From a virus, in UHGV virus genome UHGV-0099607: 15,515 bases of DNA. One strand, given 5' to 3'. Below are positions 9,001 to 15,000 of this stretch, piece after piece (position 1 is the first letter of the stretch; every line of letters begins with the position of its first letter). Position numbers: made by a program.

Positions 9001-12000
9001 GAACCGTAGCCGCGCTGATGACGGGATTGTCTAGGTTTGTATTGCTTCCAGCCTTCGCTTTTGTGGCTTTCGCAGTAGCCTGACGGGTCAGTCGTGGTAT
9101 GGCGGCAACCGCGAACACGGCAGGCTTTTGGGGTTCGTGGTGGCATGCTGGCTCCAATAAAAAGCCCCGCGACGCGAGGCTTAGACAGAAAAAACACCGG
9201 ATAAGATCTGGTCATTCTTCCTTTTTAATAATGACTTCTCGAGGGCGCAATTGTTGGATAGCACGACAAATACAATATGGAATAACTGCCCATGCTACTC
9301 CCATTGCTGCACCTGCAGCCTGTTGTGGAGCACTCTGAGCACCGAAAACCCCGAGGATTCCTTCAATAAATCCAATAGCACTACACAAAAGACTGATGAC
9401 CCAGAGAATTTTCATAAACCCAAACTCCTTTTAAATAAACACATTACTAGGATAATTCTCATAAAATGTTAGTAAAGTATTTTCAGGAAAATAGCGTATC
9501 ACTGCCTATTTTTGACACTGATGCTGGGATAATTATTCCGATCGCTGGAGTTGCTCATGATGATACAGAGCGAGAATCAGGTCATAAGACCCTTGCCTGT
9601 CTTTGTAACCAGTTTTATCAACCAATTCAGCTTTACTGATTCCGGGTAAATCAAGAATCAGATTCGCAACTTCAATTGCCCTTTGGTACAACTTACCGCC
9701 CTTTTTCTCCCCATGCAGTGGTTTTACATTCTTCAGGTAACCGCTATCCGCCAAGGCGAGAAATGTTGCCCTTGGGCATATCTTCTTTCTTGACGATTCG
9801 CTTTCTGTAACCTCTGCGACAGCTGCATCCCATGCATCACGAGGAGTCATTGAGCTATCAGCCACCAAATGATAAGCGATTAAAGCAACGTGAGCGTATT
9901 GAGACATAATGCATCCATATACAAAAATCTAATGATAAGACTTTTCTAATATGAACACTGTGATCTCACATATTCTTGCAGGCCATTCAATTGGTTAGTT
10001 ATGGTTTCGATGCGCTCTCTGAGAACGAAATAATCCCGTTGAGCGGTGTCAGTAAGTCTGGGGCTGGAAGCATCATCCACGCCGGAGGCGGCGGTGGTTT
10101 TATGCTTGTCCGGACAGACTGCTTTGACGTGCAGCCACTTACGACCAGCAGAAACATCAGCACGAAGACTTTCGATAGTCGCGTTAGCATCAGCAAGCTC
10201 CTTTGTGTATCTGGCGTCGAGTTCTGCTACATCATGTTGACGCTTCTGCATGTCAGCGATTGTGGATGTGGCCTTATCGCGCTGCTCTTTGTAGGTAATG
10301 GCGTTATCACGGTAATGATTAACAGCCCATGACATGCAGACGATGATGCAGATGAGCAGAGCGGAGATAATCGCGGTTAATCTGCTCATACCTCAATCTC
10401 TCTGACCGTTCCGCCTGCTTCTTTGAATTTTGCAATCAGGCTGTCAGCCTTATGCTCGAACTGGCCATAACCAGCGCCCGGCAGTGAAGCCCAGATATTG
10501 CTGCAACGGTCGATAGCCTGACGGATATCACCGCGATCAATCATCGGTAAAGCGCCACGCTCCTTAATCTGCTGCAGTGCAACAGCGTCCTGGTTTTTCG
10601 GAGAGAAGTCTTTCAGGCCAAGCTGCTTGCGGTAGGCATCCCACCAACGGGAAAGAAGCTGGTAACGTCCGGCTGCTGTTGATTTGAGTTTGGGGTTTAG
10701 CGTGACAAGTTTGCGAGGGTGATCGGAGTAATCAGTGAATAGCTCTCCGCCTACAATGACGTCATAACCATGATTTCTGGTTTTCTGACGTCCGTTATCA
10801 GTTCCCTCTGACCACGCCAGCATATCGAGGAACGCCTTACGTTGATTATTGATTTCCACCATCTTCTACTCCGGCTTTTTTAGCAGCGAAGCGTTTGATA
10901 AGCGAACCAATCGAGTCAGTACCGATGTAGCCGATGAACACGCTCGTTATATAAGCGAGATTGCTACTTAGTCCGGCGAAGTCGAGAAGGTCACGAATGA
11001 ACCAGGCGATAATGGCGCACATCGTTGCGTCGATTACTGTTTTTGTAAACGCACCGCCATTATATCTGCCGCGAAGGTACGCCATTGCAAACGCAAGGAT
11101 TGCCCCGATGCCTTGTTCCTTTGCCGCGAGAATGGCGGCTAACAGGTCATGTTTTTCTGGCATCTTCATGTCTTACCCCCAATAAGGGGATTTGCTCTAT
11201 TTAATTAGGAATAAGGTCGATTACTGATAGAACAAATCCAGGCTACTGTGTTTAGTAATCAGATTTGTTCGTGACCGATATGCACGGGCAAAACGGCAGG
11301 AGGTTGTTAGCGCAGCCTCCTGCCACCCGCTTTCACGAAGATCATGTGTAGAAGGCAGCAGCGTAACTATCACTGATGAGTTCAGGATAGCCAGTGGCTA
11401 CGGCTCAGTTATGGTGCTGGTTAACGGACTTGAACCGCTACCCATTCGCTTACAAGGCGACTGCTCTACCATTGGAGCTAAACCAGCATATTTGGCGGGA
11501 CAGCGTGGACTCGAACCACGATAAGAAGGTTAACAGCCTTCCGTAATGACCTTTATACGACTGACCCAAATAAAAAATCCCGAAACCGTTATGCAGGCTC
11601 TAACTATTACCTGCGAACCGTTTCGGGATTGCATTTTACAGACCTCTCAGCCTGCGATGGTTGGAGTTCCAGACGATACGTCGAAGTGACCAACTAGGCG
11701 GAATCGGTAGTAAGCGCCGCCTCTTTTTATCTCACTACCACAACGAGCGAATTAACCCATCGTTGGGTCAAATTTACCCAACTTTATTCAAAAAGTCAAT
11801 ATCATGCCGTTAATATGTTGCCATCCGTGGCAATCATGCTGCTAACGTGTGACCGCATTCAAAATGTTGTCTGCGATTGACTCTTCTTTGTGGCATTGCA
11901 CCACCAGAGCGTCATACAGCGGCTTAACAGTGCGTGACCAGGTGGGTTGGGTAAGATTTGGGATTAGCATCGTCACAGCGCGATATGCGGCGCTTGCTGG

Positions 12001-15000
12001 CATCCTTGAATAGCCGACACCTTTGCATCTTCCGCATTCTTTCTCAACAACTCTCCCCCACTGCTCTGTTTTTGCTATATCAACCGCACGGCCTGTACCG
12101 TGACAATCTCTGCATCTTGCGCCAGGCGTCGCGGCACTACGGCAATAATCCGCATAAGCGAATGTTGCGAGCACTTGCAGTACCTTTGCCTTAGTATTTC
12201 CTTCGAGCTTTGCCACACCACGGTATTTCCCCGATACCTTGTGTGCAAATTGCATCAGATAGTTGATAGCCTTTTGTTTGTCGTTCTGGCTGAGTTCGTG
12301 CTTACCACAGAATGCAGCCATTCCGAATCCGGCTTGTGATTGCGCCATCCCCATAGCAGCCATCACATCAGTAGCTCCCTGTGTGCATCCAACTGCCTTA
12401 GCAAGTGTTGTTTGAGAGATATTCAGTGACTCTCGATATTTTCGTAGGTTGCTCATATGCCCTCCATAGTAACCATGAAACAATAATACGATATGTACTT
12501 TTAGAATGCAAACAAAAAATACATCTTGTGCATGGATGGTTTTAGTACAGAGCGTAATAATAAGGGTATGAAAATGAAATGGTATGAACTGGCTAGATCC
12601 AGAATGAAAGAGCTCGGCATAACTCAAGAGAAGTTAGCTGAAGAGCTTGGTATGACGCAGGGTGGAATTGGTCACTGGTTGCGCGGATCTCGTCATCCAT
12701 CTCTTGACGAGATTGGTGTGGTGTTTAAATACCTTGGTATTGATAACGTCTCATTCAACCACGACGGTACATTTTCACCTGTTGGCGAATACTCATCTGC
12801 CCCCGTTAAAAAACAATATGAGTACCCTGTTTTTTCTCATGTTCAGGCCGGGATGTTCTCGCCTGAGCTTAGAACCTTTACCAAAGGTGATGCGGAGAGA
12901 TGGGTCAGCACAACCAAAAAAGCCAGTGATTGTGCGTTTTGGCTTGAAGTTGAAGGTAATTCCATGACCGCGCCAACAGGATCCAAGCCAAGCTTTCCTG
13001 ACGGGATGTTAATTCTCGTTGACCCTGAGCAGGCTGTTGAGCCAGGTGATTTCTGCATAGCCAGACTTGGTGGTGACGAGTTTACCTTCAAGAAACTGAT
13101 CAGGGATAGCGGTCAGGTGTTCCTACAGCCACTAAACCCGCAATATCCAATGATTCCATGCAATGATAGCTGTTCCGTAGTAGGGAAAGTTATCGCCAGC
13201 CAGTGGCCTGAAGAGACATTTAGTTAACAGCCTCACCACTCTAAAACACACAACAATAACCCGACCTTAGCGTCGGGTTTTCTTTTTCCAAAATATAAAC
13301 CCATTAAATACAAAGCGTTATAAAAAACTAATTATATTTAGAACATTTTGTATTGACTCGATAAAGTACAAATCGTACTATTTAGCCATCAGCAGGACGC
13401 ACTAACCACCATGAAGGTGAGGCTCTTAAAAATTAAGCCCTGAAGAAGGGCAGCATTCAAAGCAGAAAGCTTTGGGGTGTGGTGAAGCTCAACGGCGAGC
13501 TAGGGAATAGTTTTGCGGTGAAGATTCTAGACAACTAACCGCAGGATGCGCGTAACCCAATCGGCAGCGCACCGATGGAAGCTGGTTCGACTCCAGCCAC
13601 CACACCACCAAAGCTAACTGACAGGAGATGAACATGAAACATAACGAACACTTTATGGCTTGGTTGAAGTCAATGCGTGATGAAGCAAAGCGTCCTGAAA
13701 CAACAATGACGCGAATCGTGGAAATCTTCTCCTGCATCAGCAAGTACGCAACCTGCCAATAACTGTCGGCCCCGCTGAGGGGCCATTTATCTGAGGATGA
13801 TATATGGACTCTCAAACACGCCGCCGCGAACGTCGCGCAGAGAAACAGGCTCAATGGAAAGCAGCAAATCCCCTGTTGGTTGGGGTAAGCGCAAAACCAG
13901 TTAACCGCCCTATTCTCTCGCTGAATCGCAAACCGAAATCACGAGTAGAAAGCGCACTGAATCCGATAGACCTTACAGTGCTGGCTGAATACCACAAACA
14001 GATTGAAAGCAACCTGCAACGTATTGAGCGCAAGAATCAGCGCACATGGTACAGCAAGCCTGGCGAACGCGGCATAACATGCAGTGGACGCCAGAAAATT
14101 AAGGGAAAATCGATTCCTCTTACCTAGTTACTTAGATATTGGCCTTGGCTTTATCTCAATATTATATGGATCATAGCTGGCAACTAATTCAGTCCAGTAA
14201 ATATCCTCAATAGGGAATAATATATGCTTCCCGTTCCATCGGGAAAAAGTTTTGTTCAACACACCAAGCTCAATCAACTCACTAATGTATGGGAATTGTT
14301 TTGATGTAACCACATACTTCCTGCCTTCATTAAGGGCTGCGCACAAAACCATAGATTGCTCTTCTGTAAGGTTTTGAATTACTGATCGCACTTTATCGTT
14401 TTGCATCTTAATGCGTTTTCTTAGCTTAAATCGCTTATATCTGGCGCTGGCAATAGCTGATAATCGATGCACATTAATTGCTAGCGAAAATGCAAGAGCA
14501 AAGACGAAAACATGCCACACATGAGGAATACCGATTCTCTCATTAACATATTCAGGCCAGTTATCTGGGCTTAAAAGCAGAAGTCCAACCCAGATAACGA
14601 TCATATACATGGTTCTCTCCAGAGGTTCATTACTGAACACTCGTCCGAGAATAACGAGTGGATCCATTTCTATACTCATCAAACTGTAGGGGTTGTAATA
14701 GTTTATCCGATTTCTCGCTGTAGGGGTACACGAGAACCACCGAGCCTGATGTGGTTAAAAGACAGGCACAATCTTTACTACCGCAATCCACTATTTAAGG
14801 TGATATATGGAAGAAGAATTTGAAGAGTTCGAAGAGCATCCGCAGGATGTAATGGAACAGTACCAGGACTATCCGTATGACTACGACTATTGATAAGAAT
14901 CAATGGTGTGGACAATTCAAGCGATGCAATGGATGCAAGCTGCAATCGGAATGCATGGTTAAGCCTGAAGAAATGTTTCCTGTAATGGAAGATGGGAAAT

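What the first reader, a model, noticed from the sequence alone, without database searches (positions are those of the whole stretch)
11842..12567. Cro-like N-terminus fused in frame to Q; whole replication/nin region missing, so repressor-controlled PR would drive the late antiterminator directly
Directly divergent from cI (111-bp operator region) is an ORF with a GGAGG RBS whose first 28 residues look like the start of a Cro/XRE helix-turn-helix and which then continues in frame as Q from about residue 32 to its C-terminus. No cII, O, P, ren or nin genes lie between the immunity region and Q. The simplest reading is a deletion joining the 5' end of cro to Q. To my recollection the N-terminal ~40 residues of lambda Q are outside its structured core, so the fusion may still antiterminate at pR'; that needs checking. 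If so, repressor inactivation (the cI Ala-Gly/Ser/Lys autocleavage motifs are intact) would switch on pR', the tRNAs, S-R-Rz/Rz1 and terminase without any phage replication: an SOS-wired lysis module rather than a phage.
Basis: partly seen in the sequence, partly recalled or inferred. Interest (0 to 1): 0.8.

Follow-up and report, generated by a model that had tools for sequence, protein, structure and literature searches.

The report
Deletion-made Cro–Q chimera in dead prophage
A 6.4-kb deletion in a decaying E. coli prophage fused the start of the cro gene to a late-gene activator (Q) that has lost the part it needs to work, so this is most likely a disarmed remnant and not a DNA-damage-triggered lysis device; the unexpected part is that the cro breakpoint recurs, to the nucleotide, in many unrelated prophage remnants.

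Summary
On the minus strand, 12456..11842 is a 204-aa ORF made of Cro residues 1-28 joined in frame to lambda-type Q residues 32-207. It lies divergent from an intact cI, with nothing between the immunity region and Q. Against an intact phage carrying the same cro and the same Q (phage Dewey), 6,402 bp are missing, and the joint is a shared TA.

The functional reading is not supported. Q residues 1-44 are disordered in free Q, but with NusA they fold into the torus in the RNA-exit channel. Published deletion 1-38 and V6A mutants bind DNA and RNA polymerase but do not antiterminate (PMC9388147). The chimera replaces residues 1-31. pR', qut, tR' and a second hairpin still stand before S-R-Rz, and nutR is gone.

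A second deletion of about 12 kb removed the head and tail genes. The element is a grounded SfI/SfV-like gtr prophage, seen only in a few metagenome or sequencing-run assemblies and in none of 5,426 complete E. coli genomes.

The unexpected result concerns the breakpoint. At least 10 different chimeras break at this same cro nucleotide, and all 9 partner sites whose intact sequence I recovered carry exactly TA at the joint. This points to a site-specific process that I could not identify.

The parts
11842..12456 (-). Chimeric ORF cro'-'Q, 204 aa plus stop
   Evidence: Translation. Pfam Antiterm PF03589 E=2.1e-54; HTH_3 matches only profile positions 1-23 of 55, at 19.2 bits against a cut-off of 23.
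12374..12456 (-). Cro-derived part: codons 1-27 and the first two bases of codon 28. It holds helix 1, helix 2 and the start of the recognition helix only.
   Evidence: 100% DNA identity to the intact cro of E. coli NCCP12480; phage Dewey's Cro begins with the same 28 residues.
12372..12373 (-). Deletion joint: the TA dinucleotide shared by cro (GAGC-TA-TCGG) and Q (CCGG-TA-CTGA)
   Evidence: Three-way alignment. The BLAST ends of the two homologies overlap by exactly these 2 bases.
11842..12371 (-). Q-derived part: lambda-type Q residues 32-207 (torus helix 32-42, residues 45-60, body with HTH, zinc ribbon) and the stop codon
   Evidence: 175/176 identical to lambda Q 32-207. 99.8% DNA identity to the intact Q of an E. 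coli GF4 prophage. Residue roles from PMC9388147.
12460..12465 (-). Ribosome-binding site GGAGGG of cro, now serving the chimera
   Evidence: Read directly from the sequence.
12483..12512 (-). PR candidate: TTTGCA (12512-12507), 18-nt spacer, TATTAT (12488-12483)
   Evidence: Consensus scan. It coincides with the 'putative major rightward promoter' annotated in the 92%-identical Stx1-converting phage AP005153.
12485..12559 (.). OR region; three operator-like sites mapped by homology at 12485-12501, 12517-12533 and 12543-12559
   Evidence: Transferred from the AP005153 annotation. The sequence is 100% identical to that of intact prophages. Not tested for binding.
12532..13227 (+). cI repressor, 231 aa as annotated in relatives; a start at 12568 is equally possible. 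HTH plus S24 autopeptidase.
   Evidence: Pfam HTH_3 and Peptidase_S24. 71% identical to lambda cI over 211 aligned residues, with the C-terminal domain nearly identical. The exact protein is widespread.
11771..11799 (-). Late promoter pR' (TTGACT, 17-nt spacer, TAAATT) with the embedded Q-binding element
   Evidence: Scan. Alignment to lambda: 3 substitutions from the Q stop codon to the 6S start.
11573..11630 (-). tR' intrinsic terminator: long hairpin followed by six U
   Evidence: Alignment to lambda. Fold -29.9 kcal/mol, z = -6.6.
11493..11567 (-). tRNA-Asn (GTT), starting a few bases after tR'
   Evidence: ARAGORN, Rfam. Same position in the intact GF4 prophage.
11412..11487 (-). tRNA-Thr (TGT)
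   Evidence: ARAGORN, Rfam.
11284..11330 (-). Second terminator-like hairpin (GGCAGGAGG...CCTCCTGCC, then GTTTTG) upstream of S; also present in lambda
   Evidence: Alignment; fold -28.1 kcal/mol, z = -2.6.
9946..11169 (-). Intact lysis cassette: S (10846-11169), R (10386-10862), Rz (9946-10389) with embedded Rz1 (about 9999-10196)
   Evidence: S 106/107 and R 155/158 identical to lambda; Rz 142/147 identical to SfI; no internal stops. Pfam hits for holin and Rz.
13353..14127 (+). Early-left control region kept intact: pL candidate (13353-13381), nutL boxB GCCCTGAAGAAGGGC (13437-13451), N (13804-14127)
   Evidence: Scan. N 105/107 identical to lambda N; Pfam N36. That this hairpin is boxB is my own recollection of the lambda nutL sequence.
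5815..6252 (-). Second deletion chimera, 145 aa. The joint at 6156-6158 links sequence just upstream of the annotated portal gene to the baseplate V gene. About 12 kb of head and tail genes are missing.
   Evidence: BLAST against phage SfI: SfI 2565 is joined to SfI 14539 with a 3-nt overlap. Gene order from SfI. It is found on the same contigs as the Cro-Q chimera.

Best explanation
The ORF is a by-product of prophage decay. An SfI/SfV-like, gtr-carrying lambdoid prophage of E. coli lost 6.4 kb between a TA in cro codon 28/29 and a TA in Q codon 31/32. By chance of frame this produced Cro(1-28)-Q(32-207).

Shown: the chimera keeps cro's ribosome-binding site and the cro upstream region, which is 100% identical to that of intact prophages and contains a PR-like promoter and three operator-like sites. 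The neighbouring cI has an HTH domain and a lambda-like S24 autopeptidase domain.

Inferred: the chimera is made only when cI is inactivated, for example by RecA-stimulated self-cleavage.

Inferred from published work on lambda Q, which is 175/176 identical over the retained part: the product can still bind the Q-binding element in pR' and the paused RNA polymerase. It cannot build the N-terminal torus that narrows the RNA-exit channel, because helix 1-11 and loop 12-31 are replaced by an unrelated half helix-turn-helix. Transcripts from pR' therefore stop at tR'. Transcripts from PR also stop there, because nutR was deleted and N cannot modify them. S-R-Rz and the two tRNAs stay off.

Together with the loss of replication genes, cro, cII and all head and tail genes, this leaves a locked-in remnant. 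What it still plausibly does (also inferred) is O-antigen glucosylation (gtrA, gtrB, type-specific gtr), immunity and exclusion (cI, sieB), and SOS-inducible expression of the pL operon (N, ral, cIII, kil, gam, bet, exo).

The cro breakpoint itself is not random (see the section on the most novel reading).
For: - Junction mapped to the base, with intact cro and intact Q both present in phage Dewey 6,402 bp apart.
- Q residues 1-44 form the torus. Deletion 1-38, V6A and G39A are antitermination-defective but bind QBE (PMC9388147).
- Natural homologues down to 45% identity keep residues 1-31 at 52-71% identity, whereas the chimera has 19%.
- pR', qut and tR' are conserved, tR' folds strongly, and a second hairpin lies before S.
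- A second 12-kb deletion removed the virion genes.
- The joint is absent from 5,426 complete E. coli genomes, 50,697 phage records and one genome per species of GTDB. It is present in a few assemblies that are 100% identical to the window, so it is recent and rare.
- Many other deletion chimeras of the same Q exist: 434-type Cro(1-39)-Q(76-207), also in a gtr remnant; O-Q(37-207); DnaB-Q; NinI-Q; Q-Rz.
Against: - The exact chimera has never been assayed. The published mutant removes residues 1-38, whereas here residues 32-38 are kept and 28 foreign residues of similar length are added.
- The primary paper on the deletion mutant (Vorobiev 2014) could not be read here; I rely on its description in PMC9388147.
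- The lysis cassette, tRNAs, pR' and terminase are all still intact. That fits a recent event but would also fit retention by selection.
- Read-through of tR' from a fully derepressed PR was not quantified.
Confidence: 0.8

Rival explanations
1. The chimera is an active antiterminator, so cI cleavage turns on PR, then Cro'-'Q, then pR' read-through, tRNAs, S-R-Rz and terminase. The result would be an SOS-triggered lysis module without phage production.
For: The wiring is physically there. PR/OR and an apparently cleavable cI lie directly upstream. The Q body, zinc ribbon, residues 45-60 and torus helix 32-42 are retained. pR'/qut and the lysis genes are intact. The foreign N-terminus has nearly the same length as the part it replaces (28 versus 31 residues).
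Against: - Deletion 1-38 and the single substitution V6A abolish antitermination.
- Helix 1-11 contacts the zinc-binding domain and the loop 12-31 lines the exit channel, and both are replaced.
- Residues 1-31 are under strong purifying selection in natural Q proteins.
- A remnant that lysed its host at every SOS event, with no virions made, would be costly to the host.
- The independent Cro-Q(76-207) and O-Q(37-207) chimeras show that such joins arise without regard to Q function.
Confidence: 0.06
2. The chimera is a dominant-negative Q. It occupies the Q-binding element and the paused polymerase at lambda-type pR' promoters without antiterminating. During SOS it would damp late gene expression of co-resident or superinfecting phages that use the same Q specificity.
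For: The deletion 1-38 mutant is reported as not defective in QBE and RNA polymerase interactions. The chimera keeps all those determinants. Lambda-type Q with the same qut is very common in E. coli prophages: Q-region matches in 4,499 of 5,426 genomes, and a 3,759-member protein cluster.
Against: No experiment on dominance was found. The chimera is expressed only when its own cI is inactivated. It is rare (3 to 4 contigs). Nothing indicates selection on it.
Confidence: 0.06
3. The joint is an assembly or chimeric-read artefact.
For: All carriers are short-read metagenome or sequencing-run assemblies. No isolate genome in the searched collections has the joint.
Against: Three assemblies from different pipelines (k119 MEGAHIT-style, SPAdes-style NODE, Logan) are 100% identical across the joint, and one contig recurs in 4 samples. 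Only 2 bases are shared at the joint, so a de Bruijn graph could not bridge it without spanning reads. Analogous joints at the same cro base occur in a complete genome (730V1).
Confidence: 0.01

Closest known systems
Lambda Q lacking residues 1-38 (Q 39-207; Vorobiev et al. 2014, as described in PMC9388147)
   Same: It lacks the N-terminal torus-forming segment but keeps the QBE-binding body, the zinc ribbon and the RNA polymerase contacts. The retained sequence is 175/176 identical to lambda Q.
   Different: The window's protein keeps residues 32-38 and carries 28 unrelated Cro residues in place of residues 1-31. It arose naturally and sits under PR rather than downstream of the nin region.
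Serotype-converting Shigella/E. coli phages SfI and SfV
   Same: gtrA-gtrB-type gtr next to Mu-like baseplate and tail-fibre genes, HK97-like terminase with HNH, and the same overall prophage gene order, at 96-99% identity in pieces.
   Different: The immunity region, Q and S/R are of other lambdoid types. About 12 kb of virion genes and about 6.4 kb of early-right genes are deleted, so the element cannot form a phage.
Defective lambda prophage cI857 delta(cro-bioA) used in recombineering strains (DY330/DY380; own knowledge)
   Same: cI-controlled pL operon (N, kil, gam, bet, exo) retained. cro and the replication genes are deleted, so the element cannot replicate or switch to Cro control.
   Different: That deletion also removes Q, the lysis genes and the virion genes, and was made in the laboratory. 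Here the deletion ends inside Q and the lysis cassette remains.
Other natural deletion chimeras of lambda-type Q and of this cro allele
   Same: The same kind of in-frame joins found in prophage remnants: 434-type Cro(1-39)-Q(76-207) in another gtr remnant; O-Q(37-207); DnaB-Q; NinI-Q; Q-Rz. Cro(1-28) is also found joined to cII, DnaB, NinI, rusA, a replication gene, tail genes and Rz.
   Different: Different partner genes, and all in different prophage backgrounds.
Illegitimate recombination anchored at a nick site (M13 gene II protein, pC194 Rep; own recollection of Michel and Ehrlich 1986)
   Same: One deletion endpoint is fixed to the base and the other is variable, with very short identity at the joint.
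   Different: No nickase or origin is known in cro. The one candidate I could test, the phage P2 A protein, nicks 2-3 bases away from the equivalent position. This is a resemblance only.

Membership tests
Lambda-type Q antiterminator (Pfam PF03589) | Q body (four-helix bundle with HTH) and zinc ribbon, residues 61-207 | tested here: met
   PF03589 E=2.1e-54; 175/176 identical to lambda Q 32-207.
Lambda-type Q antiterminator (Pfam PF03589) | N-terminal segment (residues 1-44) that folds into the torus in the RNA-exit channel and is required for antitermination | tested here: not met
   Residues 1-31 are replaced by Cro residues 1-28, at 19% identity against 52-100% in natural homologues. The requirement comes from PMC9388147.
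Lambda-type Q antiterminator (Pfam PF03589) | Gene lies immediately upstream of pR' with its Q-binding element and of tR' | tested here: met
   Alignment to lambda and to an intact prophage; promoter scan and fold.
Lambda-type Q antiterminator (Pfam PF03589) | Antitermination activity at tR' | not testable with these tools
   Needs a reporter assay or an in vitro transcription assay.
Cro / XRE-family HTH repressor (PF01381) | Complete helix-turn-helix domain and the C-terminal part needed for folding and dimerisation | tested here: not met
   Only HTH_3 profile positions 1-23 of 55 are matched, at 19.2 bits, below the cut-off of 23. The intact 71-aa Cro scores 47.8 bits.
Cro / XRE-family HTH repressor (PF01381) | First gene of the PR operon, divergent from cI across OR | tested here: met
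Defective (grounded) lambdoid prophage | Loss of replication, regulatory and virion genes relative to intact relatives, with deletion joints that can be mapped | tested here: met
   6,402 bp missing relative to Dewey. About 12 kb missing relative to SfI. Joints share 2 and 3 bases.
SOS-controlled lysis module (repressor directly controlling a working activator of a lysis cassette, as in pyocin/tailocin or colicin release systems) | A functional activator or antiterminator linking repressor inactivation to expression of the lysis genes | tested here: inconclusive
   The wiring and the lysis genes are present. The activator lacks a segment that published mutants show to be essential. Activity itself was not testable.

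The most novel reading that the evidence does not exclude
The cro'-'Q join is one product of a recurrent, nucleotide-precise, TA-specific rearrangement anchored in this cro allele (...CAGGGAGC-TA-TCGG...). At least 10 different partners are joined at exactly this base in unrelated prophage remnants: cII, a replication gene, DnaB, a gene next to ninB, NinI, rusA, Q, Rz and two tail-region sites. All 9 partner sites whose intact sequence could be recovered carry TA, and essentially only TA, at the joint. This would mean that a site-specific enzyme repeatedly truncates the PR operon of prophages of this immunity type and so grounds them. Candidates are a nuclease leaving a 2-nt TA end with the cI side protected, or a recombinase or transposase with a TA core acting on a pseudo-site. 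The Cro-Q chimera would be a footprint of that process and not a random decay event.
Probability: 0.4. Interest if true: 0.65.

Novelty: new member of a known kind. Interest (0 to 1): 0.4.

Why it matters
As first proposed, a phage-free lysis cassette wired to SOS through a Cro-Q fusion would have been a striking example of prophage domestication. The evidence says the fusion most likely disables Q. The element then illustrates the opposite and more ordinary outcome: deletions that leave cargo genes (O-antigen modification, exclusion, immunity) and remove or break what would kill the host.

It also gives a concrete caution. A segment that is disordered in a crystal is not necessarily dispensable.

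The side result may matter more. One base in a common cro allele is a shared deletion endpoint in many independent remnants, always with a TA joint. If a specific enzyme is responsible, it would be a mechanism that actively grounds prophages. It could be tested directly by cataloguing junctions across assemblies and looking for a co-occurring gene.

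Tried and rejected
- **Exact junction scans.** A 36-mer across the joint gave no match in one genome per species of GTDB. The cro-side 19-mer followed by any base but T gave no match in JGI metagenome contigs. The carriers are in ENA and Logan assemblies instead.
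- **Primary paper.** I tried to read Vorobiev 2014 (PMC3951671); it is not held.
- **Natural Q variant or module boundary at cro codon 28.** Rejected. Intact Cro variants at 70-83% identity differ throughout their length, and the shared immunity segment has the same right-hand extent in intact and deleted elements.
- **Mobile cI-cro' cassette.** Rejected for the same reason.
- **Hairpin or cruciform at the cro site.** Single-strand folds are no better than shuffled sequence, z about 0.
- **Type IIS-like enzyme.** No k-mer of 4-6 bases sits at a fixed offset in at least 4 of 7 TA sites, in any orientation. GGATG lies 12 bases before the cro TA, but nothing comparable is at the partner sites.
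- **Phage P2 A protein nick.** P2 ori is GCGCCTCGGAGTCC with the nick annotated at the first G of GG. cro shares only TCGGA, and the equivalent nick would fall 2-3 bases to the right of the observed end.
- **Chi, Ter, Dcm/Vsr and common IS inverted-repeat tips.** Considered from memory; none fits.
- **Resolvase half-site.** The bottom strand at the breakpoint matches the resolvase half-site consensus TGTCYNNTA (own recollection), but the crossover would be 5 bases away.
- **Literature.** A search for a cro deletion hot spot found nothing relevant.

Full report
**1. What is in the window**

The window is one arm of a lambdoid prophage. Reading left to right, the gene order is as follows:
- gtrA, gtrB and a 417-aa type-specific gtr (50-2582);
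- on the minus strand: tail-fibre assembly, tail fibre and baseplate genes;
- a 145-aa chimeric ORF;
- a 60-aa membrane protein, terminase large and small subunits, and an HNH endonuclease;
- two small genes, then Rz/Rz1, R and S;
- tRNA-Thr and tRNA-Asn, then the ORF in question;
- on the plus strand: cI, lambda-like N, sieB (minus strand), ral and the cIII thermometer.

The best matches over the whole window are the serotype-converting phages SfI and SfV, at 96-99% identity in pieces, and lambda for the Q-lysis and N-ral parts. A longer contig carrying the same element continues past gtrA into a CbtA/CbeA-RadC-antirestriction island. From memory, this resembles the CP4-6 island at thrW in E. 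coli K-12; I did not test that.

**2.

The ORF runs on the minus strand from the ATG at 12456 to the stop at 11842 (204 aa) and has GGAGGG four bases upstream.

Its first 28 residues, and all DNA from 12372 to about 13487, match intact prophages and phages. In those relatives the same reading frame continues as a 71-aa Cro: E. coli NCCP12480 at 100% identity over 12372-12600, and phage Dewey at 99.6% over 12372-13474.

From 12373 downward the DNA is 99.8% identical to intact lambda-type Q genes, which are preceded by ninH. At the protein level, residues 29-204 equal lambda Q 32-207 at 175 of 176 positions.

The two homologies overlap only in the dinucleotide TA: cro GAGC-TA-TCGG and Q CCGG-TA-CTGA.

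Phage Dewey is an isolated 40-kb phage. It carries this cI, a complete cro with the identical first 28 codons, cII, replication and nin genes, and a 207-aa Q identical to the Q part of the chimera. In Dewey the two TA sites are 6,402 bp apart. N-terminus.

**3. How common is the joint**

None of 5,426 complete E. coli genomes, 50,697 phage records, or one genome per species of GTDB holds the joint. The exact 204-aa protein occurs on 3 to 4 contigs from ENA and Logan assemblies. Those contigs are 100% identical to the window, and one of them was seen in 4 samples. The joint is therefore real, recent and rare.

**4. A second deletion**

Against SfI, position 2565 (just upstream of the annotated portal gene) is joined to position 14539 (inside the baseplate V gene) with a 3-base overlap, at window 6156-6158. 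This removes about 12 kb: portal, protease, capsid, connectors, sheath, tube, tape measure and hub. The resulting 145-aa ORF is found on exactly the same contigs as the Cro-Q chimera. The element cannot make virions.

**5. Can the chimera antiterminate?**

The retained part is essentially lambda Q, so the lambda literature applies. Yin et al. 2022 (PMC9388147) report the following:
- The N-terminal 60 residues are disordered in free Q.
- Residues 45-60 fold on binding the paused complex.
- With NusA, residues 1-44 fold into helix 1-11, loop 12-31 and helix 32-42. Together these form a torus at and inside the RNA-exit channel.
- The mutant lacking residues 1-38 (Vorobiev 2014) and the substitutions V6A and G39A are defective in antitermination, but not in binding the Q-binding element.

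The chimera replaces residues 1-31, that is, helix 1 and the whole loop.

I checked conservation independently. In 20 natural homologues, residues 1-31 are as conserved as the body or more so. At 45-58% overall identity they are still 52-71% identical. The chimera scores 19%.

I could not read the primary deletion-mutant paper, and the exact chimera has not been assayed. This step is therefore strong inference, not proof.

**6. The downstream signals**

- pR' (TTGACT, 17-nt spacer, TAAATT), the qut region and the 6S region differ from lambda by only a few substitutions.
- tR' folds at -29.9 kcal/mol (z = -6.6) and is followed by six U.
- tRNA-Asn starts a few bases after tR', then comes tRNA-Thr. 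The same arrangement is seen in an intact prophage.
- A second hairpin followed by GTTTTG precedes S, as in lambda.
- S, R, Rz and Rz1 are intact.

nutR lay between cro and cII and is gone, so transcripts from PR cannot be N-modified. The same holds for transcripts from pR' without a working Q. Both should therefore stop at tR'.

**7. What is left working (inferred)**

cI has an HTH domain and an S24 domain. Its C-terminal domain is nearly identical to lambda's, and the stretches I recall as holding lambda cI's cleavage-site and catalytic residues are unchanged. PR and three operator-like sites map by homology to an annotated relative. A pL-like promoter, a hairpin I recognise as the nutL boxB, and N are intact. 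Longer contigs continue with cIII, kil, gam, bet and exo.

The remnant should therefore respond to SOS by expressing the pL operon. Without Cro, replication or lysis, it should return to repression. This resembles the cI857 delta(cro-bioA) prophage of recombineering strains (own knowledge).

**8. Context: such chimeras are common**

A search with the chimera found many other deletion products of the same Q:
- 434-type Cro(1-39)-Q(76-207). This lies in another strongly reduced prophage that kept int, recT, N, cI and gtrABC.
- O(1-~63)-Q(37-207), on 23 contigs.
- DnaB-Q, NinI-Q and Q(1-76)-Rz.

None of these respects Q's functional boundaries. This is what random or host-protective deletion would give, and it argues against a designed Cro-Q switch.

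**9. The unexpected part: a recurrent breakpoint**

*How it was noticed.* E. coli O19:H7 730V1 has the same cro allele broken after the same base, but joined to the middle of Rz. That joint is unique among the complete genomes.

*The tally.* A search with the intact 71-aa Cro found about 20 distinct true chimeras with breaks in codons 24-71. Ten of these diverge exactly after residue 28. Three diverge after residue 38. The rest are singletons. Breaks before about codon 23 would not have been detectable.

*The partners at residue 28.* They are cII, a replication protein, DnaB, a small gene upstream of ninB, NinI, rusA, Q, Rz, and two sites in a PhiTE-like tail region. They lie in different prophage backgrounds and chromosomal loci.

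*The joints.* At the DNA level the left side always ends ...CAGGGAGC-TA. For the 9 partners whose intact sequence I could recover, the partner carries TA exactly at the joint:

| Partner | Sequence at the joint |
|---|---|
| Q | CCGG-TA-CTGA |
| Rz | CAGA-TA-CACA |
| DnaB | CGGT-TA-GCGT |
| NinI | TGCT-TA-ATGG |
| cII | ACGA-TA-TGGC |
| tail tube | CGGA-TA-ATGC |
| replication gene | GGGG-TA-CGGC |
| gene upstream of ninB | GAG-TA-TGAG |
| rusA | CTGT-TA-CCAA |

Seven joints share exactly 2 bases and two share 3 (TAT). By chance a TA is expected in 1 of 16 cases.

*What this pattern suggests.* A fixed end with no nibbling, together with a strict 2-base identity, looks more like enzyme chemistry than ordinary microhomology repair. 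Such an enzyme could be a nuclease leaving a 2-nt end with one product protected, or a recombinase or transposase with a TA core.

*Candidates tested.* I tested and could not support a hairpin, a type IIS-like motif, or the P2 A nick site. I found no literature on it. It remains unexplained.

**10. Verdict**

The observation and the deletion origin are confirmed. The functional interpretation (an active Q, and therefore an SOS-wired lysis module) is improbable. The object is a new instance of a known kind: a grounded prophage carrying a chimeric pseudogene-like ORF. The recurrent TA-anchored breakpoint in cro is the feature that deserves follow-up.

Noticed in passing
window 12372-12373 (cro codon 28/29); loci L018, L019-L024, L033, L034: The cro breakpoint of the window is shared to the base by at least 10 different deletion chimeras in unrelated prophage remnants. 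All 9 recoverable partner sites carry exactly TA at the joint. The cause is unknown.
   Followed up: partly
cro codon 38/39 of the same allele; loci L025, L027, L029: A second, weaker cluster of breakpoints lies 30 bases downstream: CGCTTC| twice and CGCTT| once, each with a different partner in tail or ejection genes. Single-base frameshifts also cluster at codons 26-30 and 38 (proteins P0224, P0235, P0236, P0188, P0215).
   Followed up: partly
window 5815-6252 (-), joint at 6156-6158: A second internal deletion of about 12 kb joins sequence just upstream of the annotated portal gene to the baseplate V gene, giving a 145-aa chimeric ORF with a 3-base overlap at the joint. It always co-occurs with the Cro-Q joint.
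   Followed up: yes
window 11412-11567 (-): tRNA-Asn and tRNA-Thr replace the lambda orf-64 region and start a few bases after the tR' U-run, so their expression should depend on Q read-through. The same arrangement is found in intact prophages and, with a Q21-type Q, in SfI.
   Followed up: partly
L011-L013 (protein P0073): An independent 434-type Cro(1-39)-Q(76-207) fusion sits in another minimal prophage remnant that kept int, recT, N, cI and gtrABC. This is a parallel case of a gtr prophage stripped down around its immunity region.
   Followed up: partly
window 12532-13227 (+): cI is a mosaic. Its N-terminal DNA-binding domain differs from lambda's, while the C-terminal domain from about residue 95 is almost identical to lambda cI. 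The recognition helices of this cI (TQGGIGHW) and Cro (TQGAIGHW) are alike. The annotated start at 12532 overlaps two operator-like sites, so a start at 12568 is plausible.
   Followed up: no
window 15288-15346 (+): Rfam finds the lambda cIII thermoregulator element (88.5 bits) at the right edge of the window.
   Followed up: no
window 9212-9907 (-): Two small genes lie between Rz and the HNH endonuclease: a 124-aa DUF6979 protein and a 67-aa predicted membrane protein. They are also present in SfI; their function is unknown.
   Followed up: no
L008 16112-19938: Beyond gtrA the longest carrier contig continues into a CbtA/CbeA toxin-antitoxin, RadC, antirestriction, YfjT/YfjS island. From memory this resembles the CP4-6 island at thrW in E. 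coli K-12, which would mean two elements in tandem at that locus.
   Followed up: no
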